A DNA stretch of 64,000 bases from a virus (Duplodnaviria; Caudoviricetes). The notes beneath the pieces were generated by a model. That model did no database searches. It saw nothing but the letters and a program-made list of their open reading frames with translations, and had not been told where the DNA came from. Made by a program: the position numbers and the translations under genes. Of this stretch, positions 13,586-41,898 are shown piece by piece. Each line of letters starts with the position of its first letter. Positions within the stretch are counted from its first letter, which is position 1. The stretch spans positions 1 through 64,000 of IMG/VR virus record IMGVR_UViG_3300028886_000036; one strand, given 5' to 3'.

Positions 13586-14404
13586 ATGCAGGTTAAAGAT
13601 TTACCTACTATGAAGAAGTTTACATTTCCAGTATATGAGGTAGTTACTCCAGTTACTGGTAGGCATTTTTTAGTTAGAGCTATGACAGTAGCTCAAGAGT
13701 CACTTATTAGGGAAAGTAGTACTTCTGATTCAAAGAGATTACAGTTATTGTATCAGGTGTTATTTGATTGTATTGAGAATAAGGAACCGCCATTCACATC
13801 TATTGAAGGATTTCTTAAAAACTTAACAATTAATGATCTTGATGCACTTTTGTTTGGAGTTATTGTTTCTACATATGGAGAAACTCAGGACTATACAGTT
13901 AAGTGTCCTAGATGTGAAAATGAGATTAAGGGTAAGTTTGTTCTTCCAGAAATTATTGATATTACTGCGTATGATGGTAATGAGGATTTACTTCTTAAGG
14001 AAGTTGAAATTGAACTTCCTATTTCAAAGTATAAAGCAATACTTAAAGTGCCTACATTATATGATGAAAGAATGCTTAATATGAATAAGGGCATATCTAA
14101 AGATATTATTTCTAAAATGGGAGAGTATCTTATTGTTAAGAAACTTATTATTCCTGGAGTTGAAACTACCAAAACTGGTGAAACCATTGAAAAGGAATAT
14201 ATAGTTGATAAAGCTATTGAGATTTATACAACTTTTACTAATCTTCCAGCAGCTGACGCTAAGTTTGTTAGGAAGCAGTGGGATGAGCTTTTTGGTAAGT
14301 ATAGAATTAAGTTAGAAGTGCCTATGCATTGTTCTAATTGTGATAATGAGTTTAAGAATCCTATAAATCTTCTTCTGGAGTTCTTTCGCCTCGCCTGGCA
14401 GTAG
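13586..14404 (+). CDS. T4 gp26-like baseplate hub / tail assembly chaperone
   Basis: PVYEVVTP..VRAMTVAQE, LTINDLDALLF..STYG, CPRC and CSNC zinc motifs, C-terminal EFFR. Confidence 0.75.
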   Translation: MQVKDLPTMKKFTFPVYEVVTPVTGRHFLVRAMTVAQESLIRESSTSDSKRLQLLYQVLFDCIENKEPPFTSIEGFLKNLTINDLDALLFGVIVSTYGETQDYTVKCPRCENEIKGKFVLPEIIDITAYDGNEDLLLKEVEIELPISKYKAILKVPTLYDERMLNMNKGISKDIISKMGEYLIVKKLIIPGVETTKTGETIEKEYIVDKAIEIYTTFTNLPAADAKFVRKQWDELFGKYRIKLEVPMHCSNCDNEFKNPINLLLEFFRLAWQ

Positions 14405-23100: not shown

Positions 23101-24011
23101 GATATAGATTAATACTAAAAGAAGATACTTATCATAAGACTGTATATCATTTAAGTGATAATCCTAATTTAGATGGTGTAGTTTTAAAACCTAGTATACC
23201 TAAACTTAAATTTGATGATGAGAATGGTACCATCAAAAGAGTTTGTTTCTCAACTACTATAGACGGGTGTTTACAAGGATTATATCCAATATATCCTGGT
23301 ACTTCTTTAGATGATCTTAGATACACTAGCTTTGAGGGAGAATATCTTTATGTATATGAGCCGTTTAATTCTGATTTTAGCTATGTTGATACTGATACTT
23401 TAGTTAAAAAGAGATTAGTTCCTGATGCTGAAGTTAGTAAAGAAGTTTGGATTACATCTCCGGTTAAAGTTAAGTTAGTAGGTACAATCTACGTGTATCC
23501 ATATGATTCAGTTAAATCTTTTAAGTTTATTTGGAGAGGTAAACAAGATAAACCTGCTATTGGTATAAGGTTAAAATGGAAATGGGTAGATAGGTTAAAG
23601 GAAAGTTACTTAAGAGAAGACCTTGGTAATACTCCTAAAGGTTATAAAGATATCAATAAGATTATGGATTATTGTAATGAATGGTTTGAGAATAACCCAG
23701 ATAAAGCTGATAAGGTTATATGGAAAAGATACATCCAAGTTAGGAATTGGATTAGAGAACTTAAGAAGTATAGGAGTAAGTTTGGACCTATTACTTTTGA
23801 AAGAAAGATTGATGAATTAAAACTCAATAAAGAAAAAACAGGTAAGGATGGTTATATCACATTAGATAGAGCTATTCTTATATTTTTTAAAAAATGGAAA
23901 GAGAGTAATTATAATCTGGAAGATCTTAACAGAAGTATAATGTATTGTTTAGTTGAATTAAGATCTTTCAGAAAGAAATTTAAGAAACAAGAATTTAGTT
24001 GTAAGCTATAA
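23097..24011 (+). CDS. ADP-ribosyltransferase-like protein with MRYRLILKE leader and C-terminal extra domain
   Basis: VYHLS..LKPSIP..E..IKRVCFSTTIDGCL..YVYEP..VPDA..KEVWIT.PV; linker LKESYLRED. Confidence 0.6.
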   Translation: MRYRLILKEDTYHKTVYHLSDNPNLDGVVLKPSIPKLKFDDENGTIKRVCFSTTIDGCLQGLYPIYPGTSLDDLRYTSFEGEYLYVYEPFNSDFSYVDTDTLVKKRLVPDAEVSKEVWITSPVKVKLVGTIYVYPYDSVKSFKFIWRGKQDKPAIGIRLKWKWVDRLKESYLREDLGNTPKGYKDINKIMDYCNEWFENNPDKADKVIWKRYIQVRNWIRELKKYRSKFGPITFERKIDELKLNKEKTGKDGYITLDRAILIFFKKWKESNYNLEDLNRSIMYCLVELRSFRKKFKKQEFSCKL

Positions 24012-24019
24012 CAAAAAGA

Positions 24020-24045
24020 AAAGGGCAGTTAATGTGGCTTGCCCA
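24020..24045 (-). terminator. Intrinsic terminator
   Basis: Minus strand GGGCA..TGCCC followed by TTTTCTTTTT. Confidence 0.6.
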
Positions 24046-24058
24046 GGCCGAGTTTTGG

Positions 24059-24229
24059 TTAACTTTTATTTTCTTCTTTTTTAGCGGATTCCTGACGAGC
24101 AGCTTCTGCATCGCAGAGAGCCGACTCGTAATTAAACCCGCAGCCATAACAATCGTATTCGCAGTACGACCCGCCAGCGAAGCACATAGGCAATCCTGTA
24201 ATAGGATTGATTTCAAAGTTTCTTGCCAT
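24059..24229 (-). CDS. Small Cys-rich early protein (56 aa, MARNFEINPITGLPMCF...)
   Basis: Not in the ORF track; purine-rich SD; own promoter motif (24309) and terminator; elevated GC; C-x6-C-x3-C-x2-C-x8-C. Confidence 0.7.
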   Translation of the reverse strand: MARNFEINPITGLPMCFAGGSYCEYDCYGCGFNYESALCDAEAARQESAKKEENKS

Positions 24230-24308
24230 AAAAGGCCTCTTTCTCCTACACTATAGCAGTAGGCGCTATGGGTTGATTGGCTTAAAGCTTTTTGCTTTTG
24301 CCACAAAT

Positions 24309-24325
24309 ACAATATATATACAATT
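24309..24325 (-). promoter_or_regulatory. Putative phage early promoter (AATTGTATATATATTGT)
   Basis: Matches the shared motif. Confidence 0.55.
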
Positions 24326-24338
24326 GAGGTGATAATAA

Positions 24339-24908
24339 ATGCTTTCAAATTGGGATAAAGCTTTTAATTCTGTTTTGAAGTATGAGGGTGGTTATGTTAA
24401 TGATCCACTTGATATGGGTGGAGAGACCAATATGGGTATAACCAAGAATACTCTTATTAAAGCACAGAATGAAGGCATAGTTGATAGAAAAATCACAGTC
24501 AAAACTTTAAGAAAATCTGATGCACAAAAGATATATAAAGCATATTATTGGGATAAGATGTATTGTGATGATTATGAAACTCCAATAGATCATATCATTT
24601 TTGATTCAGTAGTTAACCATGGCATTAAAGGTGGTTCTAGAATAGTTCAAAGAGCTGTTAATAGTATGGGTATAGAAGGTCTTTCATTAGTGGTTGATGG
24701 TATTTTTGGTAGAATGTCTAGAGAAGCTATTGATAGAATATGTGCTTTAGAGGAAACTACTAAATTAGCTAAAATGATACTTATAAAGAGAAAGGCTTAC
24801 TATGATGATATTATTGCTAGTAAACCTTCACAAGCAAAGTTTAGAAGAGGTTGGTATAATAGATTAAATAACTTAGCTAAAGACTGTGGTATTGATTGGA
24901 AGGTTTAA
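24339..24908 (+). CDS. Endolysin, glycoside hydrolase family 108 with C-terminal peptidoglycan-binding domain
   Basis: EGGYVNDPLDMGGETNMGIT, IY..YYWD, FDSVVNHG, VDGIFG, FRRGWYNRL. Confidence 0.9.
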   Translation: MLSNWDKAFNSVLKYEGGYVNDPLDMGGETNMGITKNTLIKAQNEGIVDRKITVKTLRKSDAQKIYKAYYWDKMYCDDYETPIDHIIFDSVVNHGIKGGSRIVQRAVNSMGIEGLSLVVDGIFGRMSREAIDRICALEETTKLAKMILIKRKAYYDDIIASKPSQAKFRRGWYNRLNNLAKDCGIDWKV

Positions 24909-24913
24909 TTTAA

Positions 24914-25333
24914 ATGGCTTTCTCTAATACTTTAGATTCATTAAGTGCTACAGTATTAGCAGAAGTTGAAGATATAGTTAATAATAGAATAGCATCTTCT
25001 ACTGAAAAGGTAGCTGTATTAACTCCGTCAAATAATGTAGTTACAATAGATCCTAGTTCTGCATCATTGTTTAAGATTACTTGCAGTTCTAATACAGCTA
25101 TCTCTTTAGAAGATATTGATGAGATATACACTAATAATGGTGGTACAGTTTCTATATTATTAACTAGAAGTTCTGATTCAGTAGTAATTACATGGCCCAA
25201 TAGTATTACCTGGAATGATGGTACTGCACCAACTTTATCACATGTTGATATGATAATTTTAACTACTTTTGATGGTGATACTACTTGGGTTGGTAATGCT
25301 ATTACTGTAGATAGTACATTTCCTTCAGAATGA
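24914..25333 (+). CDS. Tail-fibre adapter-like protein (copy 1, standalone)
   Basis: TIDP..LF..SILL..ITWPNSITW.DG.AP.LS..TFDG..W domain seen 7 times in the window. Confidence 0.65.
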   Translation: MAFSNTLDSLSATVLAEVEDIVNNRIASSTEKVAVLTPSNNVVTIDPSSASLFKITCSSNTAISLEDIDEIYTNNGGTVSILLTRSSDSVVITWPNSITWNDGTAPTLSHVDMIILTTFDGDTTWVGNAITVDSTFPSE

Positions 25334-25890
25334 TTACTAGAGCTATAAGACAGTTACATTGTAAATCTAAATCACCAGAAAGACTTTATTTATATAACTA
25401 TGGGGATGAATGTGTAGATGTAACTGGAGGATGGGGTGTAATATATCAAAGTAATAAAACTCTAACTAAAGAATCTGACCATCTTTTATGGACACCATCT
25501 TCTGGAACTATGCAGCATGCTTGGATTTATACTATGAATACTATTGATTTTAGTCCTTGGTCAATGCTTCATATAGATTTTGAGGATTATATTACGAATG
25601 GGAATACAAGCCAATTTTATATATGGGCATCTACTGATAGGACATCTAGAGCTTATAATGATACAGGAAAAGTATTCACAGTTTTAGATACAAACTACGG
25701 AAGATCAATGGATAGCTATAAATATAAGAGAAATTACGACTTTACTTATGATGATTATTTAGCAATCAGGCCAAATGATACTAAACCAGATTTATCACAA
25801 TACACAACTCCATATTATTTGGGAATAGGTCACTATTCAGATTATTCTCAAACTGGTTATGCTAAAATTTATGAGGTTTGGTTAGAATAA
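25330..25890 (+). CDS. Putative receptor-binding beta-sandwich protein
   Basis: RLYLYNYGDECVDVTGGW..YEVWLE domain shared with 25905-27020; aromatic-rich. Confidence 0.55.
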   Translation: MITRAIRQLHCKSKSPERLYLYNYGDECVDVTGGWGVIYQSNKTLTKESDHLLWTPSSGTMQHAWIYTMNTIDFSPWSMLHIDFEDYITNGNTSQFYIWASTDRTSRAYNDTGKVFTVLDTNYGRSMDSYKYKRNYDFTYDDYLAIRPNDTKPDLSQYTTPYYLGIGHYSDYSQTGYAKIYEVWLE

Positions 25891-25904
25891 AAGGAGATGT
25901 ATAA

Positions 25905-27020
25905 ATGACAACTTATAGTAAACCTATATTTAATATACCAGTAAGTTTTTCTAGTAGTCCTATTGTTTATGTTTATAAAACAGTATCTTTTACATCTCCT
26001 TCTAATTTAACTTCTAATGGAACTTTAGGTGGAGATAGTTTTGCTGTATCTCGTTATTATTGGTCTAATGGAGAGTATTTATTTGTTGACGATCTTCCAG
26101 AAAATGCTAATGATGAGCATCCTGCTTGGAAAGCATTTGATTCAAGTTCTTCTACATTTAATTATATTTGGGCTAATGAAGATCATCATGGGTATATGAT
26201 AATATATAATCCAGACCCTATAAATATAGAAAGTATAACTATTACTATGAGATCTTCAACATATGGTATTAGATCATTCTATTTACAAGGAAGTAATGAT
26301 GGTATTAATTATACTAATATTGAATACTTTAATGCCGGTAATACGTCTCCATCTACTTGGAATATAACTGTATCACCTTATAACGGTTATTATAAATATT
26401 ATAGGTGGGAAGTTGATAGAGGCTCGAGAGATTCATCAAGCTATACTAGTGTTCAAATGTCTAATATAGTTATTACTGGAACTAAAAAAGTTGCAAATAA
26501 AAGATTATACTTATACAATAATGGTAATGAATGCTTAAGTGTAACTGGTGGATGGGTTATTGACGAGAATTCTGCAAGTGATGGAACATATCCTTATAAA
26601 GGAGAAGATGGGTTATATTTACAGTATTCACATATGGGGTGGCCTGGCAGTTGTTTTATAACTAACAACATTATTCCCATACTTAGCTATTCAAAAATAG
26701 GATGTGTATTTAGAATATATAAAACTTATTCTAGATATCAATGTATTAGATTTGTAAATACTAATCAAATAGATTATTCATCTGGGTATAGTAACAGACC
26801 AGTATTTCCTACATATAGTTATTTAGCTACAGAATCTAGTCCATATGATGATGTTGGGTTAGCTTATGGAACAGTAAATCAATGGTCGGAAGATATAGTG
26901 TTATATGCTAGTGCTGAGCATGAGTGGAGATGGACTACTAATACTAAAATAGCAATAAACTTTTGGGGTGGAGATTCTGGATCTGGATATTTACACGTTA
27001 AGCAATTGTGGCTAGAGTAA
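25905..27020 (+). CDS. Putative receptor-binding protein: discoidin/F5-8-like domain plus RLYLYN..WLE domain
   Basis: AWKAFD, LQGSNDG..YT, YKYYRW discoidin-like motifs. Confidence 0.6.
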   Translation: MTTYSKPIFNIPVSFSSSPIVYVYKTVSFTSPSNLTSNGTLGGDSFAVSRYYWSNGEYLFVDDLPENANDEHPAWKAFDSSSSTFNYIWANEDHHGYMIIYNPDPINIESITITMRSSTYGIRSFYLQGSNDGINYTNIEYFNAGNTSPSTWNITVSPYNGYYKYYRWEVDRGSRDSSSYTSVQMSNIVITGTKKVANKRLYLYNNGNECLSVTGGWVIDENSASDGTYPYKGEDGLYLQYSHMGWPGSCFITNNIIPILSYSKIGCVFRIYKTYSRYQCIRFVNTNQIDYSSGYSNRPVFPTYSYLATESSPYDDVGLAYGTVNQWSEDIVLYASAEHEWRWTTNTKIAINFWGGDSGSGYLHVKQLWLE

Positions 27021-27037
27021 AAGGAGGTATGATATGA

Positions 27038-28003
27038 ATGGCTGTAGTTGATACTTTAAATTCATTAGGTAAAATCATTCTACCAAAGGAAAATCCAGTA
27101 GAATTAACTATTACCAATAACACAATTACTATAGATCCTAATAGTGGATCTTATTTCTTTTTAGATGATATAGATAGCAATCTTACTATTAACATTAGTT
27201 CATTGAGTGCTAGTAGTAAAACTATATACCTTAAACTTAACTTTGATGAAGACAATATTGTTATAAGTTGGCCTAATAATATAAAATGGCAAGAATTAAT
27301 TTCACCTAATATTAGCCAATATGAAGATTTATTCATATCTTTGATGACTTTAGATGGTGGTACTACTTGGTATAGTGAACCTGTTATTAAGACTAAACCA
27401 TTGACCGATTTAAGTTATTACATGGCTAATAAATATCCAGGTAGTTATAGAACATTAACATCAATACCGGTATCTGATATATTATATTTTAGTAAAATTA
27501 GACCCACATCGCTTGATAACACATTTTCAGGTGCTCTTGGTGCTTCCTCTGGTTCAACGTCATATTTAGAACTAGATGTATCTGATTTGGATACTAGTAA
27601 TGTTACTAATATGCAGGGTGTGTTTTATTATTGTAGTTCATTAACTTCATTAGATTTATCTAATTGGGATACTAGTAATGTTACAGTTACGAGTAATATG
27701 TTTAGGAGTTGCAGTTCATTAACTTCATTAGATTTGTCTGATTGGGATACTAGTAAGGTTAGTAATGACGCTTTTATGTTTACAGATTGTGATTTGGAAT
27801 ATATGATCCTAAATTCAAATACTGTAAAAATGACTAAATCAAATGGTCTTAACAATACTTGTAAAATACTAGTTCCATCAAGTGCATTAAACACATATAA
27901 ATCACATTCAGCTTGGTCTTCGAGAGCTTCACAATTTGATGCTATAGAAAACTATACAATTACTAGATCTAATGGACAAGTTACAGTGACTCCAAATACA
28001 TAA
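27038..28003 (+). CDS. Adapter domain fused to BspA-like leucine-rich repeats
   Basis: N-terminal adapter domain; DTSNVTNM..F..CSSLTSLDLSNW repeats. Confidence 0.75.
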   Translation: MAVVDTLNSLGKIILPKENPVELTITNNTITIDPNSGSYFFLDDIDSNLTINISSLSASSKTIYLKLNFDEDNIVISWPNNIKWQELISPNISQYEDLFISLMTLDGGTTWYSEPVIKTKPLTDLSYYMANKYPGSYRTLTSIPVSDILYFSKIRPTSLDNTFSGALGASSGSTSYLELDVSDLDTSNVTNMQGVFYYCSSLTSLDLSNWDTSNVTVTSNMFRSCSSLTSLDLSDWDTSKVSNDAFMFTDCDLEYMILNSNTVKMTKSNGLNNTCKILVPSSALNTYKSHSAWSSRASQFDAIENYTITRSNGQVTVTPNT

Positions 28004-28023
28004 TATAAGGGGGTATGATATGA

Positions 28024-28410
28024 ATGGCCTTTGTTGATACGATCAATTCTTTAAAAAAAAGAATGCTACAGAATTCATTAGAAAGAAGTATCACAGTTAC
28101 TCCTTCTAATAACACATTTACAATAGATCCAAATAAAGCAGCTTTGTTTTTAGTGAATGTTGCAGCTAATTCTACTATAGCTGTTTCTACTTTAAATTCA
28201 GATTATACTAATACTGGTTCGGTATTTTCTATATTACTTACTTTAGGTAGTGATTCATATACAGTATCTTGGCCTAACAATATAAAGTGGGCTGATGGAG
28301 AAGCACCTGAACTTTCTTATAAGAATCTTGTTACTTTTACTAAATTTGATAGTAGCTCTGATTGGGTTGGTGGATCTGTAGTTATTGATGCTACATTTCC
28401 TACTGCTTAA
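28024..28410 (+). CDS. Tail-fibre adapter-like protein (standalone)
   Basis: Paralogue of 24914 and 51553. Confidence 0.65.
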   Translation: MAFVDTINSLKKRMLQNSLERSITVTPSNNTFTIDPNKAALFLVNVAANSTIAVSTLNSDYTNTGSVFSILLTLGSDSYTVSWPNNIKWADGEAPELSYKNLVTFTKFDSSSDWVGGSVVIDATFPTA

Positions 28411-28427
28411 ATTGAAAGGAGATTAGA

Positions 28428-28961
28428 ATGAGTGTTCTTTCAAATGAAAGTTTTTATTGGGCAAAAGAAACAGCTGAAGATATAAATGGTATACCAGCCA
28501 GATATACCGTAGACTTTGAAGGAAATGCTATTTGTACTCATAGTTTTAGCTTAGAGCATGTTTTTGATGATGCTACTAGTGTAGATTCTTATGGATTATA
28601 TATGGCATTTTATAATTGTACAGGAATCACTGGAAGCATTTCGTTCCCTGAATTAACTAGTATAGATAATTATGGGTTAAGCTATGCATTTTGTAATTGT
28701 AAAGGAATCACTGGAAGTGTTTCGTTTCCTAAATTAACTAGTGTAGGTACGTATGGGTTATACGAGGCATTTTATAATTGTACAGGAATCACTGGAAGCA
28801 TTTCGTTCCCTGAATTAACTAGTATAGATAATTATGGGTTATACGATGCATTTTATAATTGTACAGGAATCACAGAATTGCATTTCAGATCAGATATGCA
28901 ATCTACTATTGGTTCCAATAAATATGGTGCAACTAATGCTACTGTTTATTTTGATTTATAA
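28428..28961 (+). CDS. BspA/TpLRR-type LRR protein, putative receptor-binding
   Basis: 26-aa repeats AFYNCTGITGSISFPELTS; C-terminus GATNATVYFDL. Confidence 0.75.
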   Translation: MSVLSNESFYWAKETAEDINGIPARYTVDFEGNAICTHSFSLEHVFDDATSVDSYGLYMAFYNCTGITGSISFPELTSIDNYGLSYAFCNCKGITGSVSFPKLTSVGTYGLYEAFYNCTGITGSISFPELTSIDNYGLYDAFYNCTGITELHFRSDMQSTIGSNKYGATNATVYFDL

Positions 28962-29470
28962 TTAAAATGGAGAATAAATATGTTATATTCAAGTAGTATA
29001 ATAGAAAATAAAAAAATATATAGAGCTAATTATCAAAACCTTGAGTTTACTGAAATTAAAACCATAGGTACGTATGGGTTATACTATGCATTTTATAATT
29101 GTACAGGAATCACTGGAAGCATTTCGTTCCCTGAATTAACTAGTGTAGATTCTGATGGGTTATCCTATGCATTTTATAATTGTACAGGAATCACTGGAAG
29201 TGTTTCGTTTCCTAAATTAACTAGTATAGGTTATTATGGGTTAAACTATGCATTTCGAGGTTGTACAGGAATCACTGGAAGCATTTCGTTCCCTGAATTA
29301 ACTAATGTAGATTCTGATGGGTTATCCTATGCATTTTATAATTGTAAAGGAATCACTGGAAGTGTTTCGTTCCCTAAATTAACTAGTATAGGTACTTATG
29401 GGTTATCCTATGCATTTTATAATTGTACAGGAATCACTGGAGCTGTGTCTTTTCCAGAATTAACTACTAT
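28575..29470 (+). repeat. 78-bp near-identical tandem repeats shared by two genes (about 4 + 5 units)
   Basis: Core GCATTTTATAATTGTACAGGAATCACTGGAAG..TTAACTAGT. Confidence 0.9.
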
Positions 29471-29855
29471 AAATCGGGAAGGATTATCTGGAGCATTCGC
29501 TAGTTGTACTGGAATAACGGGTGTTTCATTTCCTAAGTTAACTACTGTAGGTGGTACTGGATTAAGTCGAACATTTTATGGATGTACAGAAATAACTTCA
29601 GCTTCATTTCCAAAATTAGCTACTATTGGAAATACTGGAATGTCGTATATATTTTATGGATGCACTAGCCTTACAAGTATATCGTTTCCTACATTAACCT
29701 CAGTTGGAACTAATTGTTTTAATAATGCGTTTACAAATTGTACTTCACTTACTGAAATCCATTTTAGATTTGATATACAGTCTAGTATTGAAGCATTAGC
29801 TGGATATAGCTCTAATTTTGGTGCTACTAACGCAACTATTTATTTTGACTTATAA
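28980..29855 (+). CDS. BspA/TpLRR-type LRR protein, putative receptor-binding
   Basis: Same repeats; C-terminus GATNATIYFDL. Confidence 0.75.
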   Translation: MLYSSSIIENKKIYRANYQNLEFTEIKTIGTYGLYYAFYNCTGITGSISFPELTSVDSDGLSYAFYNCTGITGSVSFPKLTSIGYYGLNYAFRGCTGITGSISFPELTNVDSDGLSYAFYNCKGITGSVSFPKLTSIGTYGLSYAFYNCTGITGAVSFPELTTINREGLSGAFASCTGITGVSFPKLTTVGGTGLSRTFYGCTEITSASFPKLATIGNTGMSYIFYGCTSLTSISFPTLTSVGTNCFNNAFTNCTSLTEIHFRFDIQSSIEALAGYSSNFGATNATIYFDL

Positions 29856-29877
29856 AAAGAAAGGAGACATGATATAA

Positions 29878-30537
29878 ATGTCTGATGAAAATCTTATTAA
29901 CAATGAAGAAGTAATTGAAGAACAGGGTCCTATTATTGAAGAGGCACCTGTTGAGGAAGAACCTATAGAAGAAACTCCAGTTCAGGAAGAAGATACCGGT
30001 CCTAAATGGTATGAATATGATGATCCTGAAGCAGTAAACTTTATTGGTACAAAGTTTATTAAGCCAGACTACGATCAAAATGCATATGCTGCAGTAGCTG
30101 GCTGGTGTAATGAAACACAGAAAGCCTATATTATTGAATCTGAAGATGGTACTTATTATGAATGTGTAGCTATACCAGAGCCAACTTTTGAAGAACTCAA
30201 GGAAAGAAAAATGAATGAACTTGAGTTTAAATTTGAAGAAGCAGTTACTGGTAGTTTTACTACTACTGAAGGATATAATATGCAGTTTAATGAAACGGAC
30301 TGCAATAAGATGAATGGTAGTATCACTCTTAATAAAGCTACTGGAATTACTTCAGACTATTTAGTACAGGCTGATAACACTGTTATAGAAAACGTTCCAA
30401 TTGAAACAATGGAAAGTGTTCTTTTACAGATGCTTAAACAATATAAGAGTATGCATCTTAAAAAGCAGATCTTTAGAGCACGAATTAATGCATGTACTAC
30501 TAAAGAGGAGCTGGATAATGTAGATCTTACCTTTTAG
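29878..30537 (+). CDS. Tail-fibre assembly-like protein (DUF4376-like C-terminus)
   Basis: Acidic N-terminus; P.PTFEELKERK..ADN..RARINACTTKEELD. Confidence 0.6.
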   Translation: MSDENLINNEEVIEEQGPIIEEAPVEEEPIEETPVQEEDTGPKWYEYDDPEAVNFIGTKFIKPDYDQNAYAAVAGWCNETQKAYIIESEDGTYYECVAIPEPTFEELKERKMNELEFKFEEAVTGSFTTTEGYNMQFNETDCNKMNGSITLNKATGITSDYLVQADNTVIENVPIETMESVLLQMLKQYKSMHLKKQIFRARINACTTKEELDNVDLTF

Positions 30538-30550
30538 GAGGTAATGTTAT

Positions 30551-31417
30551 ATGGCAGATTTAGTAGGAAGTATACATCAGTTTCTTAATAACTGTAAAGA
30601 TACTATAGTTAGCTGGTGTAAAGATGCAGCTAAAACTGTTTGCTTGCCATTAACTGGTGGGACTGTTAATGGTAATGTAAGCACTAAAAAATTAACAGCG
30701 ACAAGCGTTAATTCATCTGGAGATGTATATAGTAAACATATATCTATTGATAACCCATCAACAACTGGAGCTATAGTGATAATTAACACGACGACATCAT
30801 ATAATGATATATATGCAACTAGTGAAAATAATGATGACGAAGATAAAAGGATTGGATTTATTAGATTCAACCCAAATCGTGATGGTTATAAGGAAATTGA
30901 AATGGTTGTTCCGCAAATGATTAATAATTCTTTAAAATACTCTACTATAAGAACTGGTATGAATTCTTCTGGAGAATTTTATACTAAAGCTATGACTCCT
31001 ACATCGGTTACAGATAATACTAACAATATCGCTACTACATATTGGGTTAATCAAGCTTTAGCTAATATGACTAAAGGATATAATACATCTAACGGAACTA
31101 GATATATTAAATTTCCAAATGGGCTTATGATATGTGCTGGATATGCTGCTAATGTAACTGCAGGATCAGTTGTAAATTTCCCTGCAGCATTTAAGAACAT
31201 GCCCGATGTAGTTATTGTTAGACATTGGGGAGGTACTGGTGATTCTACTGTGGGAGCAAGTTCTACAGTAGGGTCTGCTCCAGTTCAAGTATATAACACT
31301 ACAGTTTCTTCTTTTAGAGTTGGAGTACATACCGCTACTGCCGCAGATTCGTCTGCATATATAAATGGATCTTACACTATATATGCTATGTGGATCGCTG
31401 TTGGCGAATGGAAATAA
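30551..31417 (+). CDS. Short tail-fibre-like protein
   Basis: LPLTGGTVNG, DNTNNIATTYWV, YIKFPNGLMIC.G..FPAAF..WIAVG. Confidence 0.7.
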   Translation: MADLVGSIHQFLNNCKDTIVSWCKDAAKTVCLPLTGGTVNGNVSTKKLTATSVNSSGDVYSKHISIDNPSTTGAIVIINTTTSYNDIYATSENNDDEDKRIGFIRFNPNRDGYKEIEMVVPQMINNSLKYSTIRTGMNSSGEFYTKAMTPTSVTDNTNNIATTYWVNQALANMTKGYNTSNGTRYIKFPNGLMICAGYAANVTAGSVVNFPAAFKNMPDVVIVRHWGGTGDSTVGASSTVGSAPVQVYNTTVSSFRVGVHTATAADSSAYINGSYTIYAMWIAVGEWK

Positions 31418-31420
31418 AAT

Positions 31421-31456
31421 AAAAAGACTAGATGAGTTATCATCTAGTCTTTTTTA
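31421..31456. terminator. Bidirectional terminator
   Basis: AAAAAGACTAGATGA..TCATCTAGTCTTTTTT. Confidence 0.85.
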
Positions 31457-31458
31457 GT

Positions 31459-31740
31459 TTAACCATGTTTAAGTTTGTTAAGGATTTTAGTGTGATTATA
31501 CACACATGCAGAGTTCGTATCGTGTTTGCCAGTAATATTGCATTCTCTACAGTCTATTTTAGCATGTTCTTTACTGTATACCAATAACAGTTCGTAAGCA
31601 TCTGAAAAAATTGCGTGTGCATTTGAATATTTACAGGTATGATATTCAATATTATAAGCACTACACTTACTACAATCAGAAAAGCTAAAACACCTGTTTA
31701 AACACGCTGCAAATACAGCTAAGGGGGTTGATTTTTTCAT
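31459..31740 (-). CDS. Cys-rich small protein (paralogue family)
   Basis: Two Cys clusters. Confidence 0.65.
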   Translation of the reverse strand: MKKSTPLAVFAACLNRCFSFSDCSKCSAYNIEYHTCKYSNAHAIFSDAYELLLVYSKEHAKIDCRECNITGKHDTNSACVYNHTKILNKLKHG

Positions 31741-31745
31741 AGTTG

Positions 31746-32090
31746 TTATTCCCTTCTCTTGTTTAATAGATTATAATGATTAGCTATATCTATCAGCATG
31801 TAATCACAACATGTTCCATTAATAGCATATGGATATTCAGCGAGGTATCCACATCTTTTATCATTCCCATGGCAATATACATTTTTAAGCATTATTATAA
31901 ATTTATTCTTTTTATAAGCTTTTAATAAAGTACCAAAAGCTGCTGTACATGATTTGAAGTATGGAAAAACTGGAGAATCTTTATTAGACTTAAAGAACAT
32001 ACAATCTGAATTACATGCTGGTTTAGCAAGACACTGATTTGTAAGTGTAACTACCATTGCTACAAATATTGATCTATGTGTAGCTACCAT
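31746..32090 (-). CDS. Cys-rich small protein (paralogue family)
   Basis: Two Cys clusters. Confidence 0.65.
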   Translation of the reverse strand: MVATHRSIFVAMVVTLTNQCLAKPACNSDCMFFKSNKDSPVFPYFKSCTAAFGTLLKAYKKNKFIIMLKNVYCHGNDKRCGYLAEYPYAINGTCCDYMLIDIANHYNLLNKRRE

Positions 32091-32386
32091 TTAGATATAA
32101 CCCCGATCTTATCAAGAAATATGTTAAAATCACATCTTAGTTCTGGATTGAAGTTTTTCAGTATAAATGGGCATTTGCTACAAGAGCCCATATCACAATA
32201 TTTTTTTGCTTCTAAAACTGAACGAACATGACTGGATTTATCCATAGAATGTAGCTCACATAATTTATACTCTGTATTGTATAAAAAGCATGTGCTACAT
32301 TTATCGTTTTGCAGGCAAATTGATAATAACTGCAAATATGCAAATGGTAGGACGCGTTTACTATACATTCTTAACACACTTCCCAA
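32084..32386 (-). CDS. Cys-rich small protein (paralogue family)
   Basis: CLQNDKCSTC..C and C..CSKCP..C; start may be MYSK. Confidence 0.65.
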   Translation of the reverse strand: MGSVLRMYSKRVLPFAYLQLLSICLQNDKCSTCFLYNTEYKLCELHSMDKSSHVRSVLEAKKYCDMGSCSKCPFILKNFNPELRCDFNIFLDKIGVISKW

Positions 32387-32678
32387 TCCGGTTGGTTATA
32401 TCTGTGAAATAGCATTCATCCATATATCTATTTTTATGCCTAAAGACGCAGTGCTTATCACACCCCATTTCACCAAACATTGCGTGATAGGATTCAGCTA
32501 TTTGAGCACTTAACAAACTATCATAATCTAGAAAAGCAAATCTACCATTAAACAAAGAGCAATTTAGATATACTTCATCTATCTCATTATAAAATTTACA
32601 GTTATAACAATTATCTTGACCTAAACAAAACGTTAAACTTTGAATATATAGTAGTTCTGTTAATCCTTTTAAGATCAT
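32361..32678 (-). CDS. Cys-rich small protein (paralogue family)
   Basis: CLGQDNCYNC..C and GCDKHC..C. Confidence 0.65.
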   Translation of the reverse strand: MILKGLTELLYIQSLTFCLGQDNCYNCKFYNEIDEVYLNCSLFNGRFAFLDYDSLLSAQIAESYHAMFGEMGCDKHCVFRHKNRYMDECYFTDITNRIGKCVKNV

Positions 32679-33145
32679 TTTTTATCGGCGTTAAACAGCT
32701 TGAGTCCATCAATAGCAAATTCATTGATATTCTCAAAGTCTTTAGTGCAATCAGCTCCTAAACAAGTATCTTTACAGCTAAAGCTATAATCAGCAATTTC
32801 TGCAAGAATAGAAACTACTTCTTTAAATTTATCCGTAATTTCAATAACTATATCAATATCTTCAACTCTTACTCTAAACTTATCTTTAGGAACAATCAAA
32901 TATGCTCTAACACTAGTAAACCTATCAATACTTTCTTTATATTCAAAATAATCTTTTTCAATATTGTTCATATCAGTATCGATAACACCTTCAAATGTAG
33001 TTAAGGCATTGAAGATACCCAGGTAATAATTATGAAGTTTTTCTAGTATGCTATTACCATTAGGATAATCCTTAATTGCATTAATAACATAAACATCACT
33101 ATCAACTTTAGGTATACTTATTTTAAGAAAGTCTACAAGTTTCAT
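32675..33145 (-). CDS. Hypothetical protein
   Basis: 156 aa, AAGGAG SD. Confidence 0.7.
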   Translation of the reverse strand: MKLVDFLKISIPKVDSDVYVINAIKDYPNGNSILEKLHNYYLGIFNALTTFEGVIDTDMNNIEKDYFEYKESIDRFTSVRAYLIVPKDKFRVRVEDIDIVIEITDKFKEVVSILAEIADYSFSCKDTCLGADCTKDFENINEFAIDGLKLFNADKK

Positions 33146-33429
33146 TCTGTACCATCTCCTTTAATAAGAATTGCTGCAACAACCATAGCCCAGTATTTCT
33201 TTTTCATAAAGCTACTTTTCTTAATAAGTTTTGCAGTGTGCTTATCATACTTACCAGGATGTTTCATAATATCATTAGCTAGCGCAACACATCTATTGAT
33301 AAAGTTCATATCAAATACTTTTTTATAATCTTCATAGCTAATACCACAGTCATCAGTGCAAGTTTCCATATATTGATTGTAAAATACTTTCATTACAGCA
33401 TTAACATAGCTGTCATTAATGTGCTTCAT
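33142..33429 (-). CDS. Hypothetical protein
   Basis: Start MKHIND after AAAGGA. Confidence 0.6.
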   Translation of the reverse strand: MKHINDSYVNAVMKVFYNQYMETCTDDCGISYEDYKKVFDMNFINRCVALANDIMKHPGKYDKHTAKLIKKSSFMKKKYWAMVVAAILIKGDGTE

Positions 33430-34030
33430 TGTATTGAGTCCTTTCTTTCCAAGTTTCAAATTCATCCCAGAAGCATACTGGCATGTGTGTCATTACATTG
33501 CAATCTTTTGGGATAGCGTCTTTCTCAATAAGGCTATATGTAAAATCCAGAGGTCTTTCTTCAGGATACATATTAAGTAGATCTTCAATTAACCCGACTT
33601 CAAGATAATATATATCACCATCAAAACATTCAACCTCATAGCAAAACCGTTTGTCCTCATATAGCATGATTTCATAAGCTTTATTCATTAGTTCTTGAAA
33701 GTTTAACTCACAAGTACAATTGTATCTATCTACTTTGATTTCTTCAAATGGATAGTTCCAATATGCGACTAGAGTATTAATAGCGTCAGCTAGCCAATAT
33801 TCTGTTACTAACCACTCAGTGTGTTTAAATGGATCATAATTATCTTTACAAAAGTATAATTGGTTATTTATAACCGACTCATAGAACTCTTTAAATGAAC
33901 TAAACTCCCCAAGTTCTGTATCACTATCCCCGCATTCTTCACAATAAAGTTCTTCCCAATTAAGAGGTTCACTAGAGGTGAACAAACCACCACCAAGATG
34001 ACTTTGATACACGTATACCTTTTCTGGCAT
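33416..34030 (-). CDS. Hypothetical protein with CxxC motif
   Basis: YQSHLGGGL..LYCEECGDSD; ATG 34030 after AAAGGTG. Confidence 0.7.
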   Translation of the reverse strand: MPEKVYVYQSHLGGGLFTSSEPLNWEELYCEECGDSDTELGEFSSFKEFYESVINNQLYFCKDNYDPFKHTEWLVTEYWLADAINTLVAYWNYPFEEIKVDRYNCTCELNFQELMNKAYEIMLYEDKRFCYEVECFDGDIYYLEVGLIEDLLNMYPEERPLDFTYSLIEKDAIPKDCNVMTHMPVCFWDEFETWKERTQYNEAH

Positions 34031-34060
34031 TTTATACACACCTTTCTTTGCAGTTTACAT

Positions 34061-34101
34061 AAAAAACTTAAGTAGCCGAGTACATCCCGACTACTTAAGT
34101 T
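34061..34101 (-). terminator. Intrinsic terminator
   Basis: AACTTAAGTAG..CTACTTAAGTT hairpin with minus-strand T-run. Confidence 0.7.
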
Positions 34102-34107
34102 GTATTA

Positions 34108-34503
34108 TTATTCAGTAATTTTAGCGTAAACTGATGCTACATATTTTGGCTTTCCGCCAAATTGAGGAACAATGTTTCCAGCTTCATCAAACCCAAGTTT
34201 GACTAAAGTGGTATGATTATTAGCTACAGCCTTAAGACCTTTTTCAAAGTATTCCTTAATACTATCCTGATCAAGATTGTTATCTGCGGTGGTTTCTTCA
34301 GTTACAGATAATCCATCTCCATCAAAGCTAATGTCTTTTTTAACAGTAATTTCGCTGAAGTAGTCAATGATATTACTTAAGATATCTGTAACACCACTAA
34401 CATTCTTATATACTTTAATTTCATTCTTATAAACTTGGTCTTTAGTAGATGGTAGACCATCATCCAAATATTTTAAAATTTTAAGATCTAATGTGATAGT
34501 CAT
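34108..34503 (-). CDS. Hypothetical protein
   Basis: 131 aa, AAGGAG SD, followed by a terminator. Confidence 0.75.
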   Translation of the reverse strand: MTITLDLKILKYLDDGLPSTKDQVYKNEIKVYKNVSGVTDILSNIIDYFSEITVKKDISFDGDGLSVTEETTADNNLDQDSIKEYFEKGLKAVANNHTTLVKLGFDEAGNIVPQFGGKPKYVASVYAKITE

Positions 34504-34520
34504 TATGTATCGTCTCCTTA

Positions 34521-34829
34521 TTAATCAATTTTAGCCTTGGTATGTTGTAGTATAGCATTAACAAGGCATATATCGTCTATATTAGATTTAAATAAATTAG
34601 CTCGAAGTAAGCAATTTTCACATTTTATACATTCTCCGTCTTTACTACATTTAGAACAAGTAAGATTAAGAATATACGGGTCGGAATAACTGGTTTTATC
34701 AAATAGTTCTTCTAGATTACACGCTACGTGAATAGACCCTAAAAACTTACTGTAATCACCAAATGTAATAGCTTTATTAGTAATTCCAACATATAGGAAT
34801 GCGTATATTGCTTTATATGGTTTTAACAT
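34521..34829 (-). CDS. Cys-rich protein, tandem paralogue of 34823-35122
   Basis: Shared YVG..NK, ANL and C.VNAIL.HT. Confidence 0.7.
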   Translation of the reverse strand: MLKPYKAIYAFLYVGITNKAITFGDYSKFLGSIHVACNLEELFDKTSYSDPYILNLTCSKCSKDGECIKCENCLLRANLFKSNIDDICLVNAILQHTKAKID

Positions 34830-35122
34830 TTTTTCTTTTTCCCGGTATGGAACAATATTGCATTAACTATACAACAATTTTTAAGACATTCTACTTTGTA
34901 TAAGTTTGCTTGCATGATGCACTTATGGCATCCTCCATATTTAAGACATGCTTTAGATAATAGTTTTAAGTAGCGATTACTATAATCAACAAAAGTCCAC
35001 CACAGATTAACTTTTGTACTGTTAGTTAAAGCATCCATAGATCTTTTATCGATTAGTATTTTGTTGTGCATCCCAACATATATCATTAGAAAGATTGGTT
35101 TTGGTTTCACAACAACCACCAC
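34823..35122 (-). CDS. Cys-rich protein, tandem paralogue of 34521-34829
   Basis: Same shared motifs; start uncertain. Confidence 0.65.
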   Translation of the reverse strand: MVVVVKPKPIFLMIYVGMHNKILIDKRSMDALTNSTKVNLWWTFVDYSNRYLKLLSKACLKYGGCHKCIMQANLYKVECLKNCCIVNAILFHTGKKKKC

Positions 35123-40329: not shown

Positions 40330-41898
40330 ATGCCTAATAGTGTAAAACGATTTACTATTAAACAAAAAACTGCTTTAGGGGATCTCATCTTACATCCTGA
40401 AACAGAGATTGCCCAAATTGTAGACTTTGAATCTGGAGTTAATAGTTTAATAGCTAATGCTGCTTTCCCAAGATTTGGGCTAGTAGTTGTTAATGAATTA
40501 CCTACTGGTGATGATATTAGATATGATAAGATTTACTTGGTTACAGGTAATTCTGCTGATAATGATGAAGGAAATATATTTACAGAGTATGTTAGAGTTG
40601 GTAATAGTTGGGAAATTTTAGGTGAGCAGAGATCCGCATTACCGGTTGCAACTAGAACCAATATTGGTGTAGTTAGAATTGGTGATAATATCAATGTCGA
40701 TAATGGATTAATTAGTGTTAATACTGCTACTACATCAGCTAAAGGTGTTGTTCAGGTTGGTGACAATATTGATGTTGATGCTGGTGTAATTAGTGTCAAG
40801 AAAGGTTCTACAACTGATTTTGGTATCCTTAAAGTTGGGGATAACATTGATGTTGCTAATAGTGTTATCTCTGTTAAGAAAGGTTCAACTTCTGACTTTG
40901 GTATTTTAAAAGTTGGAGATAATATTGATGTAAGTTCCAGTGTTATTAGTGTCAAGAAAGGTGATGCTAGTAACTATGGTCTTTTAAAAGTTGGAACCAA
41001 TATTGATGTCAATGACAGTACTATCAGTGTTAAGACTGGTTCGACTACTGATAAGGGTGTTTTACAAGTCGGAGATAACCTTGATGTTGCTTCTGGAGTT
41101 ATTTCAGTTAAGAAAGCTTCTACTACAGATTTTGGCGTAGTTAAAGTTGGTACTAACATTGATGTTGGTACTGGTGCAGATTCTGGAGTAATTTCAGTTA
41201 AGACTGGTAGTACAACTGATAAAGGTGTTTTACAAGTTGGTACTAATATTGATGTAGCTAGTGGTGTAATTAGCGTTAAAGATGGATCTACTACCGACAA
41301 GGGTGTTTTACAAGTTGGAGACTATCTTAATGTTTCTAATGGGGTTGTTAACGCGGATGTTGCTACTGATTCTGCTAAGGGAGTTGTCCAGGTTGGAGAT
41401 TACCTTAGTGTTGCGTCTGGTGTAGTTTCAGCAGATGTCGCTACAGACAGTGCTAAGGGAGTTATTCAGGGCGGAGATAGAGTTACTATTAGCTCTGGTG
41501 TTTTATCAGCAGATATGCAGTATGAGATTGTTGATAATAGTAATGGTGGTACAAATACTCCTACAATTGCTGATGGATTCCTTTGGTTTGAGATCACTGG
41601 CGATGGCACAGATGGATTAACATCTAGTACATTAATACTTACAGCTCCAAGCAGTGTGACTGAAGGCAGCGCGTTAACAGTTACTGCTACAGTTACACCT
41701 AATACTGCTACTGGCACAGTTAGATTTACACTTGATGGTGAAGATGCTGGAGCCTTTAATCTTACTAATGGTACCTATGCTAGAACATTTAATAGCCTTG
41801 CAGTTGGTACTCATACAATTACTTGTGTTTATAGTGGTGACTCAACCTATAGGAGTGATTCTGCTTCAGTTGAAGATATCACTGTAACTTCGGCTTAA
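40330..41898 (+). CDS. Tail fibre with ~11 x 26-aa repeats and C-terminal Ig-like domain
   Basis: (A/G)STT.KG(V/I)(L/V)(Q/K)VGDNIDV..GVISV repeats; ATGTVRF..L.VGTHTITCVYSGD..Y. Confidence 0.75.
   Translation: MPNSVKRFTIKQKTALGDLILHPETEIAQIVDFESGVNSLIANAAFPRFGLVVVNELPTGDDIRYDKIYLVTGNSADNDEGNIFTEYVRVGNSWEILGEQRSALPVATRTNIGVVRIGDNINVDNGLISVNTATTSAKGVVQVGDNIDVDAGVISVKKGSTTDFGILKVGDNIDVANSVISVKKGSTSDFGILKVGDNIDVSSSVISVKKGDASNYGLLKVGTNIDVNDSTISVKTGSTTDKGVLQVGDNLDVASGVISVKKASTTDFGVVKVGTNIDVGTGADSGVISVKTGSTTDKGVLQVGTNIDVASGVISVKDGSTTDKGVLQVGDYLNVSNGVVNADVATDSAKGVVQVGDYLSVASGVVSADVATDSAKGVIQGGDRVTISSGVLSADMQYEIVDNSNGGTNTPTIADGFLWFEITGDGTDGLTSSTLILTAPSSVTEGSALTVTATVTPNTATGTVRFTLDGEDAGAFNLTNGTYARTFNSLAVGTHTITCVYSGDSTYRSDSASVEDITVTSA

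What the first reader, a model, noticed from the sequence alone, without database searches (positions are those of the whole stretch)
28575..29470. Homogenised 78-bp LRR modules with hypervariable codons shared between two adjacent genes
The repeat framework is nearly identical at DNA level within and between the two genes, while their termini are diverged. Units alternate A (AGC ATT TCG TTC CCT GAA) and B (AGT GTT TCG TTT CCT AAA), with one hybrid near 29360. Variation is concentrated in a few codons: after GGG TTA (TAC/TCC/AAC/AGC), the next codon (TAT/GAT/GAG), and AAT/ACG/TCT/TAT/ACT. Most, but not all, differences fit an adenine-containing template (AAC/AAT-like), as in DGR mutagenesis. 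Inference: ongoing module shuffling or gene conversion diversifies the LRR binding face, reminiscent of lamprey VLR assembly.
Basis: partly seen in the sequence, partly recalled or inferred. Interest (0 to 1): 0.7.

Follow-up and report, generated by a model that had tools for sequence, protein, structure and literature searches.

The report
Recently amplified LRR units, phage fibre genes
Two neighbouring genes in the tail-fibre region of a giant cattle-gut phage encode leucine-rich-repeat binder proteins whose repeat units were recently copied and swapped by ordinary recombination, with a few probably exposed residues changing fast; no special mutator is involved, and the pattern is common in this protein family.

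Summary
There are seven of them, three in gene A (28428-28961) and four in gene B (28980-29855). They are 79-98% identical in DNA. Every other unit pair in the phage's four paralogous genes is 42-74% identical, apart from one unit of the second cassette. The C-terminal caps of A and B are 73% identical. Both genes are BspA-type LRR (Pfam LRR_5) genes in the tail-fibre cluster of a 275-kb phage.

The DGR reading fails. The genome has no reverse transcriptase and no template copy, the mismatches show no adenine bias, and three variable codons differ at the third base in ways adenine mutagenesis cannot produce.

The recombination reading is supported:
- The units alternate as a 162-bp double unit.
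- 42 of 78 informative site pairs fail the four-gamete test.
- Alleles from other metagenomes carry 1-4 units.
- One allele lacks exactly 54 aa.
- One 88%-identical allele differs almost only at the variable positions (15 of 21 differences in 24 positions).

Those positions are also the variable positions of the whole family. DNA-level repeat homogeneity occurs in 16 of 28 other LRR loci examined. Earlier notes of this scan describe the same kind of thing in other phages. This is an ordinary but clear example, of moderate to low interest.

The parts
28024..28410 (+). 128-aa small protein with a tail-fibre-type domain (putative adaptor) directly upstream of gene A
   Evidence: PHROGs phrog_9017 and phrog_7760 'tail fiber protein', E 9e-12 and 1e-11. 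Paralogues stand at 24914-25333 and as the N-terminal part of 27038-28003.
28428..28961 (+). Gene A, 177 aa: A-type N-terminus, a half unit, three 27-aa LRR units and a short C-terminal cap
   Evidence: ORF. Pfam LRR_5 36.4 bits against a cut-off of 27.7. GGAG ribosome-binding site upstream. The exact protein is seen on 3 contigs.
28623..28865 (+). Homogenised units A1 (a), A2 (b) and A3 (a), 81 bp each
28604..28679 (+). 76-nt exact direct repeat, first copy. The second copy is at 28766-28841, offset 162. It is the likely substrate for loss or gain of a double unit.
   Evidence: Allele P0121 lacks exactly the 54 aa between the two copies.
28766..28841 (+). 76-nt exact direct repeat, second copy
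28866..28961 (+). C-terminal cap of gene A (short type), ending ...NATVYFDL
   Evidence: Identical in alleles P0033, P0121 and P0123.
28980..29855 (+). Gene B, 291 aa: B-type N-terminus, a half unit, four homogenised 27-aa units, four diverged units and a long cap
   Evidence: ORF. Pfam LRR_5 88.9 bits. AF2 model with pLDDT 93.7 and pTM 0.90. Best Foldseek match is the BspA-type LRR protein 4fs7.
29106..29429 (+). Homogenised units B1 (a), B2 (b), B3 (a) and B4 (b/a hybrid), 81 bp each
   Evidence: B1 and B3 differ at 2 of 81 nt.
29430..29744 (+). Diverged units B5-B8 (27, 26, 26 and 26 aa), 49-72% identical to the core units and to each other
29745..29855 (+). C-terminal cap of gene B (long type), ending ...NATIYFDL
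   Evidence: 73% DNA identity to the cap of gene A.
27038..28003 (+). Context: 321-aa fusion of the adaptor-type domain with a DUF285-type LRR
   Evidence: Pfam DUF285 66.7 bits. phrog_9017 matches residues 26-112.
29878..31417 (+). Context: DUF4376 protein (29878-30537) and a protein with a gp53-like tail-fibre C-terminal domain (30551-31417)
   Evidence: Pfam. phrog_1348 'tail fiber protein'.

Best explanation
Genes A and B are two paralogous BspA-type LRR proteins. They are probably host-binding tips or accessory adhesins of the tail-fibre apparatus of a 275-kb phage found in cattle-gut metagenomes.

One 27-aa unit type, present as a 162-bp a+b double unit, was recently amplified by unequal homologous recombination or replication slippage. 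It was also copied between the two neighbouring genes by non-allelic recombination or gene conversion. The framework codons are therefore still almost identical in DNA.

Seven codons carry the differences: three dipeptides (unit positions 16-17, 20-21 and 24-25) plus position 10. They are rich in Tyr, Ser, Asn, Asp and Gly. They are kept different, and reshuffled between units, by diversifying selection on binding specificity. The identical frameworks provide the homology on which the phage's or host's general recombination machinery acts, producing alleles with other unit numbers and other combinations of variable patches.

Shown: the repeat anatomy, the family membership, the absence of a DGR and of site-specific recombinases, and the allelic variation in unit number and at the variable positions.

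Inferred: virion association, binding function, selection as the cause of the variability, and recombination rather than recurrent mutation as the source of the mosaic pattern.
For: Repeat anatomy in the window
- The seven core units are 79-98% identical in DNA. Other unit pairs in the four paralogues are 42-74% identical. The exception is unit 6 of the second-cassette gene, at 74-86% to the core.
- The A and B caps are 73% identical, and the N-termini are of two different conserved types that also occur in the second cassette. The A/B split is therefore older than the shared units.
- Exact repeats: 76 nt at offset 162 within gene A, and 57 nt between the genes.
- The a and b forms differ at linked sites, giving a 162-bp period.
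- Among a-type units there are 0 synonymous and 2-8 non-synonymous differences per pair. Overall pN/pS is 1.56.
- 42 of 78 informative site pairs are incompatible, and Rm is 6 within 81 bp.

Alleles elsewhere
- P0033 (177 aa, 88% identical) has 21 differences from gene A. 15 of them fall in the 24 x-positions (Fisher p = 2.4e-11), none in the cap, and none in framework positions 1-13, 18-19, 22-23 or 26.
- P0033 unit 1 is closest to window unit A3 (26/27) rather than A1 (23/27). Its unit 2 is closest to window unit B2 (24/27) rather than A2 (20/27).
- P0121 equals gene A minus exactly 54 aa. P0122 has 2 units and the other cap type. P0123 has a diverged N-terminus with an identical distal part. 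A-type relatives carry 1-4 units.

Family and context
- Over 366 units from 157 proteins, entropy is highest at positions 10, 16, 17, 20, 21, 24 and 25 (2.3-3.1 bits). These are the positions that vary in the window.
- LRR_5 membership and fold.
- Tail-fibre context.
- The genome encodes a RecA-family recombinase.
- In-frame DNA repeats occur in 16 of 28 other LRR loci, at up to 97-99% matches.
Against: - Nothing shows that the proteins are in the virion or that they bind anything. PHROGs places the LRR part only in families of unknown function.
- With so few units, the four-gamete result could come from recurrent or convergent mutation at a few selected codons rather than from recombination.
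- 0 synonymous changes among about 12 events has a probability of about 0.06 under neutrality, by my own rough estimate. That is only marginal.
- No DNA of the allelic variants could be fetched. The collections returned nothing closer than 45% identity. The allele comparisons are therefore at protein level only.
- P0121 could be a collapsed assembly rather than a real deletion.
- Contigs from other samples that cover parts of the arrays are identical or nearly so (0/320, 0/111, 1/86 and 2/178 differences), while the flanks differ by 4-7%. Diversification is therefore not fast enough to separate those samples.
- Gene B's exact protein is not in the 15-billion-protein collection, and no close allele of it was found.
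Confidence: 0.7

Rival explanations
1. Plain recent tandem duplication, followed only by point mutation under strong positive selection at the exposed codons. After a single initial transfer, there was no further exchange between units or between genes.
For: Many differences are single-nucleotide changes. B1 and B3 differ at 2 nt, as expected of a simple 162-bp duplication. The same positions vary across the whole family, so convergent change there is plausible.
Against: 42 of 78 site pairs are incompatible and Rm is 6. Codon differences of two or three nucleotides (AAT/TCT, AGC/TCC, TAT/CGA, AAT/GGT) occur between units that show no synonymous difference. B4 is an a/b hybrid. The units of allele P0033 match non-positional window units best, including one from gene B.
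Confidence: 0.2
2. Diversity-generating retroelement: an RT copies an A-rich template, with adenine-specific errors, into the repeat codons.
For: Measured against the unit consensus, 20 of 44 mismatches lie at A, against 29% A content. The variable residues are Tyr, Ser, Asn and Asp, as in many DGR targets (the DGR comparison is recalled).
Against: There is no RVT_1 match in the whole record, with 0 candidates, while the control genomes give matches. There is no non-coding template copy: the only other hits are a coding paralogue at 69-82% identity. 32% of 501 pairwise mismatches lie at a template A, against 29% A content. 7 of 21 variable columns have no A state. Seven or more separate targets would be needed. 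The scaffold is an LRR, not a C-type-lectin or Ig fold.
Confidence: 0.02
3. Assembly artefact: the unit order or number in the metagenome-assembled contig is wrong, because repeats were collapsed, expanded or joined chimerically.
For: Logan contigs of the best-holding run break inside both arrays (pieces 28300-28633, 28812-29113 and 29412-29892). A 274,968-bp sibling contig encodes a gene A that is shorter by exactly one double unit. Gene B's exact protein is not on record elsewhere.
Against: Both frames are open and end in the conserved cap. Gene A's exact protein is seen on 3 contigs. The independent allele P0033 has the same length and unit count. Every unit differs from every other by at least 2 nt, so reads can place them. 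Pieces from another study match array segments exactly.
Confidence: 0.05
4. Programmed cassette assembly or inversion, of the VLR or shufflon kind, driven by a dedicated enzyme.
For: It is an LRR scaffold with identical frameworks and variable patches. A second cassette lies in inverted orientation at about 183-185 kb.
Against: Both genes are complete, with their own start, ribosome-binding site and stop. The genome has no Phage_integrase match and no Resolvase match. The joints seen in contigs are not multiples of 81 bp and have short sides of 21-36 letters. The second cassette is only 69-82% identical.
Confidence: 0.03

Closest known systems
BspA-type / TpLRR-type leucine-rich repeat proteins (Pfam LRR_5, PF13306). 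Solved examples: 4fs7 (Bacteroides ovatus), 4gt6, 4fd0, 4fdw, 4h09, TpLRR 6mlx, PcpA 4cp6.
   Same: The sequence profile scores above the curated cut-off. The fold is an LRR solenoid, and these entries are among the best Foldseek matches.
   Different: The unit here is 26-27 aa, against about 23 aa (69 bp) in most other loci examined. The proteins are small and phage-encoded, lack a signal peptide or cell-wall anchor domain, and end in a conserved ...NATIYFDL cap.
Tandem LRR-protein gene locus of Flavobacterium psychrophilum (Altae-Tran et al. 2020, PMC10392669; passages read)
   Same: Adjacent genes each carry a variable number of LRR units. A few positions per unit are hypervariable. Strains differ in the number and length of genes and repeats. 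The pattern is attributed to recombination without mobile-element genes.
   Different: That locus is bacterial, with up to 19 genes for secreted surface proteins, about 22-residue units, gene fragments between the genes and microhomology junctions. Here there are two intact genes in a phage tail-fibre cluster, with long (57-76 nt) exact homologies.
Diversity-generating retroelements (Bordetella phage BPP-1 Mtd type)
   Same: Localised variability in a probable phage receptor-binding protein. The variable residues are rich in Tyr, Ser and Asn.
   Different: There is no RT, no template repeat and no adenine specificity, and the scaffold is an LRR.
Lamprey variable lymphocyte receptors (recalled knowledge)
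   Same: LRR units with a conserved framework and variable positions. New combinations arise by copying units on short homologies.
   Different: VLR assembly is somatic and programmed, and fills an incomplete germline gene from flanking donor cassettes. Here both genes are complete, and the variation is between phage strains.

Membership tests
BspA-type LRR (Pfam LRR_5, PF13306) | Profile score above the curated gathering cut-off | tested here: met
   Gene A scores 36.4 bits and gene B 88.9 bits, against a cut-off of 27.7.
BspA-type LRR (Pfam LRR_5, PF13306) | LRR solenoid fold like the solved family members | tested here: met
   AF2 model with pLDDT 93.7. Foldseek top hit is 4fs7 at E 3.9e-7; 4gt6, 4fd0, 4fdw, 4h09, 6mlx and 4cp6 also match. 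TM-scores are low (0.25-0.49), as expected when curvature differs.
Diversity-generating retroelement | Reverse transcriptase encoded nearby | tested here: not met
   0 matches and 0 candidates to PF00078 in the 275,466-bp record. Control genomes give matches in 3 of 14.
Diversity-generating retroelement | Template repeat nearly identical to the variable region | tested here: not met
   blastn of 28575-29470 against the genome finds only the coding paralogue at about 184-185 kb, at 67-82% identity.
Diversity-generating retroelement | Mismatches confined to template adenines | tested here: not met
   161 of 501 mismatches (32%) lie at A, against 29% A content. Apart from the two-mismatch pair B3 to B1, the best ordered pair reaches 67%. 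7 of 21 variable columns have no A state.
VLR-like programmed assembly | Incomplete target gene flanked by partial donor cassettes | tested here: not met
   Both genes are complete ORFs with a ribosome-binding site, an N-terminus and a cap. The genome has no partial copies besides the second intact cassette.
VLR-like programmed assembly | AID/APOBEC-type deaminase driving the copying | not tested
   No search was made. T4-like phages commonly carry a dCMP deaminase (recalled), which would confound such a search.
Shufflon / invertase-switched fibre genes | Site-specific tyrosine or serine recombinase | tested here: not met
   0 matches to PF00589 and 0 to PF00239 in the record.
Phage tail-fibre / receptor-binding module | Location among tail-fibre genes | tested here: met
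   Upstream: phrog_9017-type 'tail fiber protein' domains at 24914-25333, at 27038-28003 (N-terminal part) and at 28024-28410. Downstream: DUF4376/phrog_1348 and a gp53-like C-terminal domain. The baseplate hub is at 13586-14404.
Phage tail-fibre / receptor-binding module | Presence in the virion and binding to a host receptor | not testable with these tools
No proteomic or adsorption data exist.

The most novel reading that the evidence does not exclude
The DNA-identical LRR frameworks are maintained because they act as built-in recombination scaffolds. During mixed or even single infections, the phage's own RecA/UvsX-type recombinase frequently exchanges 81- or 162-bp units among gene A, gene B and the second cassette. 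One phage lineage would then carry a combinatorial, heritable repertoire of host-binding tips: a recombination-based counterpart of a DGR, working at a rate high enough to matter within a population.
Probability: 0.1. Interest if true: 0.65.

Novelty: new member of a known kind. Interest (0 to 1): 0.33.

Why it matters
This is a clean example of how phage host-recognition genes can diversify without a dedicated mutator. Identical repeat frameworks let ordinary recombination change the unit number and recombine variable patches, while selection acts on a handful of residues per unit.

It also documents a large family of small phage LRR proteins, largely unannotated. The search gave 1710 hits at E <= 1e-5 among 8000 scored candidates, many on contigs of 60-280 kb. 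The family has a conserved C-terminal cap, and its role in the virion is untested.

Three full-text searches found no paper describing BspA-type LRR proteins as phage tail components. The mechanism itself is not new, and the pattern recurs in other loci and in earlier notes of this scan.

Tried and rejected
- megablast of 24000-32000 against 50,697 phage records gave no match.
- The search for related loci with gene B in viral contigs gave 8 loci, the best at 42% identity. With gene A in metagenome contigs it gave 20 loci, the best at 45%. No close relative's DNA was returned, so no allele could be compared at DNA level.
- Read laying: all four runs are Logan contigs, which break inside the arrays and cannot show rare variants or copy number. 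The joints in X1 (skips of 774, 207, 394 and 129; one going back 431) are not multiples of 81 and have sides of 21-36 letters, so I treat them as repeat or other-organism noise. Parts without cover are not evidence.
- The variable residues could not be mapped on the model, because coordinates are not delivered to the script machine. Only the DSSP string was usable.
- PHROGs gives only 'unknown function' families for the LRR part.
- The global N-terminus identities for non-homologous pairs (A against B) are alignment artefacts, and I did not use them.
The unit analysis was redone from coordinates.

Full report
**What is there**

The window is the first 64 kb of a 275,466-bp virus record with 32% G+C. 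CheckV rates it 100% complete. Runs labelled bovine gut metagenome hold the stretch.

The finding lies in two adjacent plus-strand genes, each preceded by a GGAG ribosome-binding site:
- Gene A: 28428-28961, 177 aa.
- Gene B: 28980-29855, 291 aa.

Both are BspA-type leucine-rich-repeat proteins. Pfam LRR_5 scores 36.4 and 88.9 bits against a cut-off of 27.7. An AlphaFold2 model of gene B is confident (pLDDT 93.7, pTM 0.90). Its best Foldseek matches in the PDB are BspA-type LRR proteins (4fs7, 4gt6, 4fd0, 4fdw, 4h09), internalin A, TpLRR and PcpA.

**Checking the observation**

Tandem Repeats Finder reports an 81-bp period, not 78 bp. The arrays are 28575-28873 (3.7 copies) and 29074-29441 (4.5 copies), with a 162-bp super-period across both genes.

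Cutting the genes in frame gives seven full 27-aa units: A1-A3 (from 28623) and B1-B4 (from 29106). Half units precede them. In gene B, four diverged units of 27, 26, 26 and 26 aa follow.
- The seven core units differ pairwise at 2-17 of 81 nt, which is 79-98% identity.
- Every other unit pair in the four paralogous LRR genes of this phage is 42-74% identical. The exception is unit 6 of the 296-aa gene in the second cassette, at 74-86% to the core units.
- The C-terminal caps of A and B are 73% identical in DNA.
- The N-termini are of two unrelated types. Both types recur in a second cassette at about 183-185.4 kb on the minus strand.
- The longest exact repeats are 76 nt within gene A (28604 and 28766, offset 162) and 57 nt between the genes.

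Only the stated period is wrong.

**The DGR idea**

Four results speak against it.
- A search of the whole record with RVT_1 found nothing, not even a candidate. The same search gives matches in control genomes.
- blastn of the array against the genome finds only the coding paralogue at 67-82% identity. There is no template-like copy.
- Over all ordered unit pairs, 161 of 501 mismatches (32%) lie at an A of the presumed template, against 29% A in the units. Against the consensus the figure is 20 of 44.
- 7 of 21 variable columns have no A state. Codons such as ACG, GAG and CGA differ from their counterparts at the third base, in ways that one AAY template cannot produce.

I consider the DGR variant refuted for this genome.

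**Recombination and selection**

The A/B gene pair is older than the shared units. Both N-terminus types and both gene types exist in the second cassette, whose units are diverged. The near-identical units in A and B must therefore have been amplified recently and moved between the genes.

Evidence inside the array:
- The linked a/b sites show that the amplified piece was a 162-bp double unit.
- 42 of 78 pairs of informative sites show all four gametes, with a minimum of six events in 81 bp.
- Unit B4 is an a/b hybrid.
- Between a-type units there is no synonymous difference, but there are 2-8 non-synonymous ones. Several of these are two- or three-nucleotide codon changes. Overall pN/pS is 1.56.

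Evidence from alleles: the protein collections hold alleles of gene A from other assemblies.
- P0033 (177 aa, 88% identical) has 21 differences from gene A.
  - Three are in the N-terminus and none in the cap.
  - 15 fall in the 24 positions 16, 17, 20, 21, 24 and 25 of the units (Fisher p = 2.4e-11).
  - Its units match non-positional window units best: unit 1 matches A3 at 26/27, and unit 2 matches gene B's B2 at 24/27.
- P0121, on a 274,968-bp contig, is gene A minus exactly 54 aa. The junction lies in the 76-nt repeat.
- P0122 has two units and the long cap type.
- P0123 has a diverged N-terminus joined to an identical distal part.
- More distant A-type relatives have one to four units.

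The genome encodes a RecA-family recombinase. It has no tyrosine or serine site-specific recombinase.

**Results that limit the claim**
- Contigs from other studies that cover parts of the arrays are identical or nearly so (0/320, 0/111, 1/86 and 2/178 differences). Their flanks differ by 4-7%. The variable codons are therefore stable between those samples.
- All runs were available only as contigs, which break in the arrays and hide rare variants.
- No DNA of the alleles could be fetched, so conversion tracts could not be shown directly.
- P0121 may be an assembly collapse.
- Gene B's exact protein is not on record elsewhere, and no close allele of it was found.
- The four-gamete result could partly reflect recurrent mutation at selected codons.

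**How ordinary is it?**

Over 366 units from 157 related proteins, entropy is highest at positions 10, 16, 17, 20, 21, 24 and 25 (2.3-3.1 bits). Tyr, Ser, Asn, Asp and Gly dominate there. These are the family's normal variable positions.

The family is large. The search gave 1710 hits at E <= 1e-5 among 8000 scored candidates, many on contigs of 60-280 kb. One hit is named 'leucine-rich repeat protein [Caudoviricetes sp.]'.

In 16 of 28 other LRR loci fetched here, TRF finds in-frame DNA repeats. Most have a 69-bp period, with super-periods of two or three units (138, 144, 207 bp) and one of four (276 bp). Matches reach 97% (L004) and 99% (L007).

The closest described analogue I could read is the tandem LRR gene locus of Flavobacterium psychrophilum (PMC10392669, passages). 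Earlier notes of this scan describe the same kind of phage LRR genes, likewise without a DGR (AI notes, not checked by me).

**Function**

Virion association and host binding are inferred from context only.
- A baseplate hub lies at 13586-14404 and an endolysin at 24339-24908.
- Three copies of a small 'tail fiber protein' domain are present. One of them is fused to a DUF285-type LRR (27038-28003), and another stands directly upstream of gene A.
- DUF4376 and gp53-like fibre genes lie downstream.

In the model's DSSP string, the first strand of each unit covers positions 4-8, whose residues do not vary among the seven core units except for Ile/Val at position 6. The variable dipeptides lie later in the unit. 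Whether they form one face could not be checked without coordinates.

**Verdict**

This is a real, well-defined case of recently amplified and exchanged LRR units, with selected variable positions, in a phage tail-fibre cluster. It is a new member of a known kind, not a new mechanism.

Noticed in passing
G000:C1 about 183,000-185,400, minus strand (L001 7023-9371): A second, inverted cassette with the same gene types: a 296-aa LRR_5 gene with the A-type N-terminus, a 157-aa LRR_5 gene with the B-type N-terminus and a 313-aa DUF285 protein. Repeat numbers are the reverse of the window's (A long, B short) and the units are diverged.
   Followed up: partly
window 27038-28003: A 321-aa protein fuses the small tail-fibre-type domain (residues 26-112), which stands alone at 24914-25333 and 28024-28410, to a DUF285-type LRR with 78-bp repeats. 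This suggests adaptor-plus-tip pairs. The stretch 27502-27668 has an enormous summed contig depth in gut runs (10,232 in X1), so this repeat motif is shared with many other organisms there.
   Followed up: partly
window 25330-25890 and 25905-27020: Two neighbouring ORFs share an internal motif (RLYLYN..G.EC..VTGGW) and a C-terminal ...WLE ending. The larger one has a weak galactose-binding-like match. They are possibly another pair of tip proteins.
   Followed up: no
window about 52,100-53,300: A third LRR_5 open frame of 515 aa, with several sub-threshold and threshold matches.
   Followed up: no
window 44997-45677; 40756-40962; 44145-44316: Other in-frame-sized tandem repeats: 363 bp x 1.9 copies at 81% matches, and 78-bp repeats at 71-75%. 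They presumably lie in fibre genes.
   Followed up: no
window 31459-35122, minus strand: A run of six ORFs of about 93-114 aa, rich in Cys and apparently paralogous (31459-31740, 31746-32090, 32084-32386, 32361-32678, 34521-34829, 34823-35122), seen in the ORF list.
   Followed up: no
proteins P0123 and P0122 (other assemblies): Mosaic alleles. P0123 joins a diverged N-terminus to a distal part identical to gene A. P0122 joins gene A's N-terminus to the long cap type. Both indicate exchange between phage strains.
   Followed up: partly
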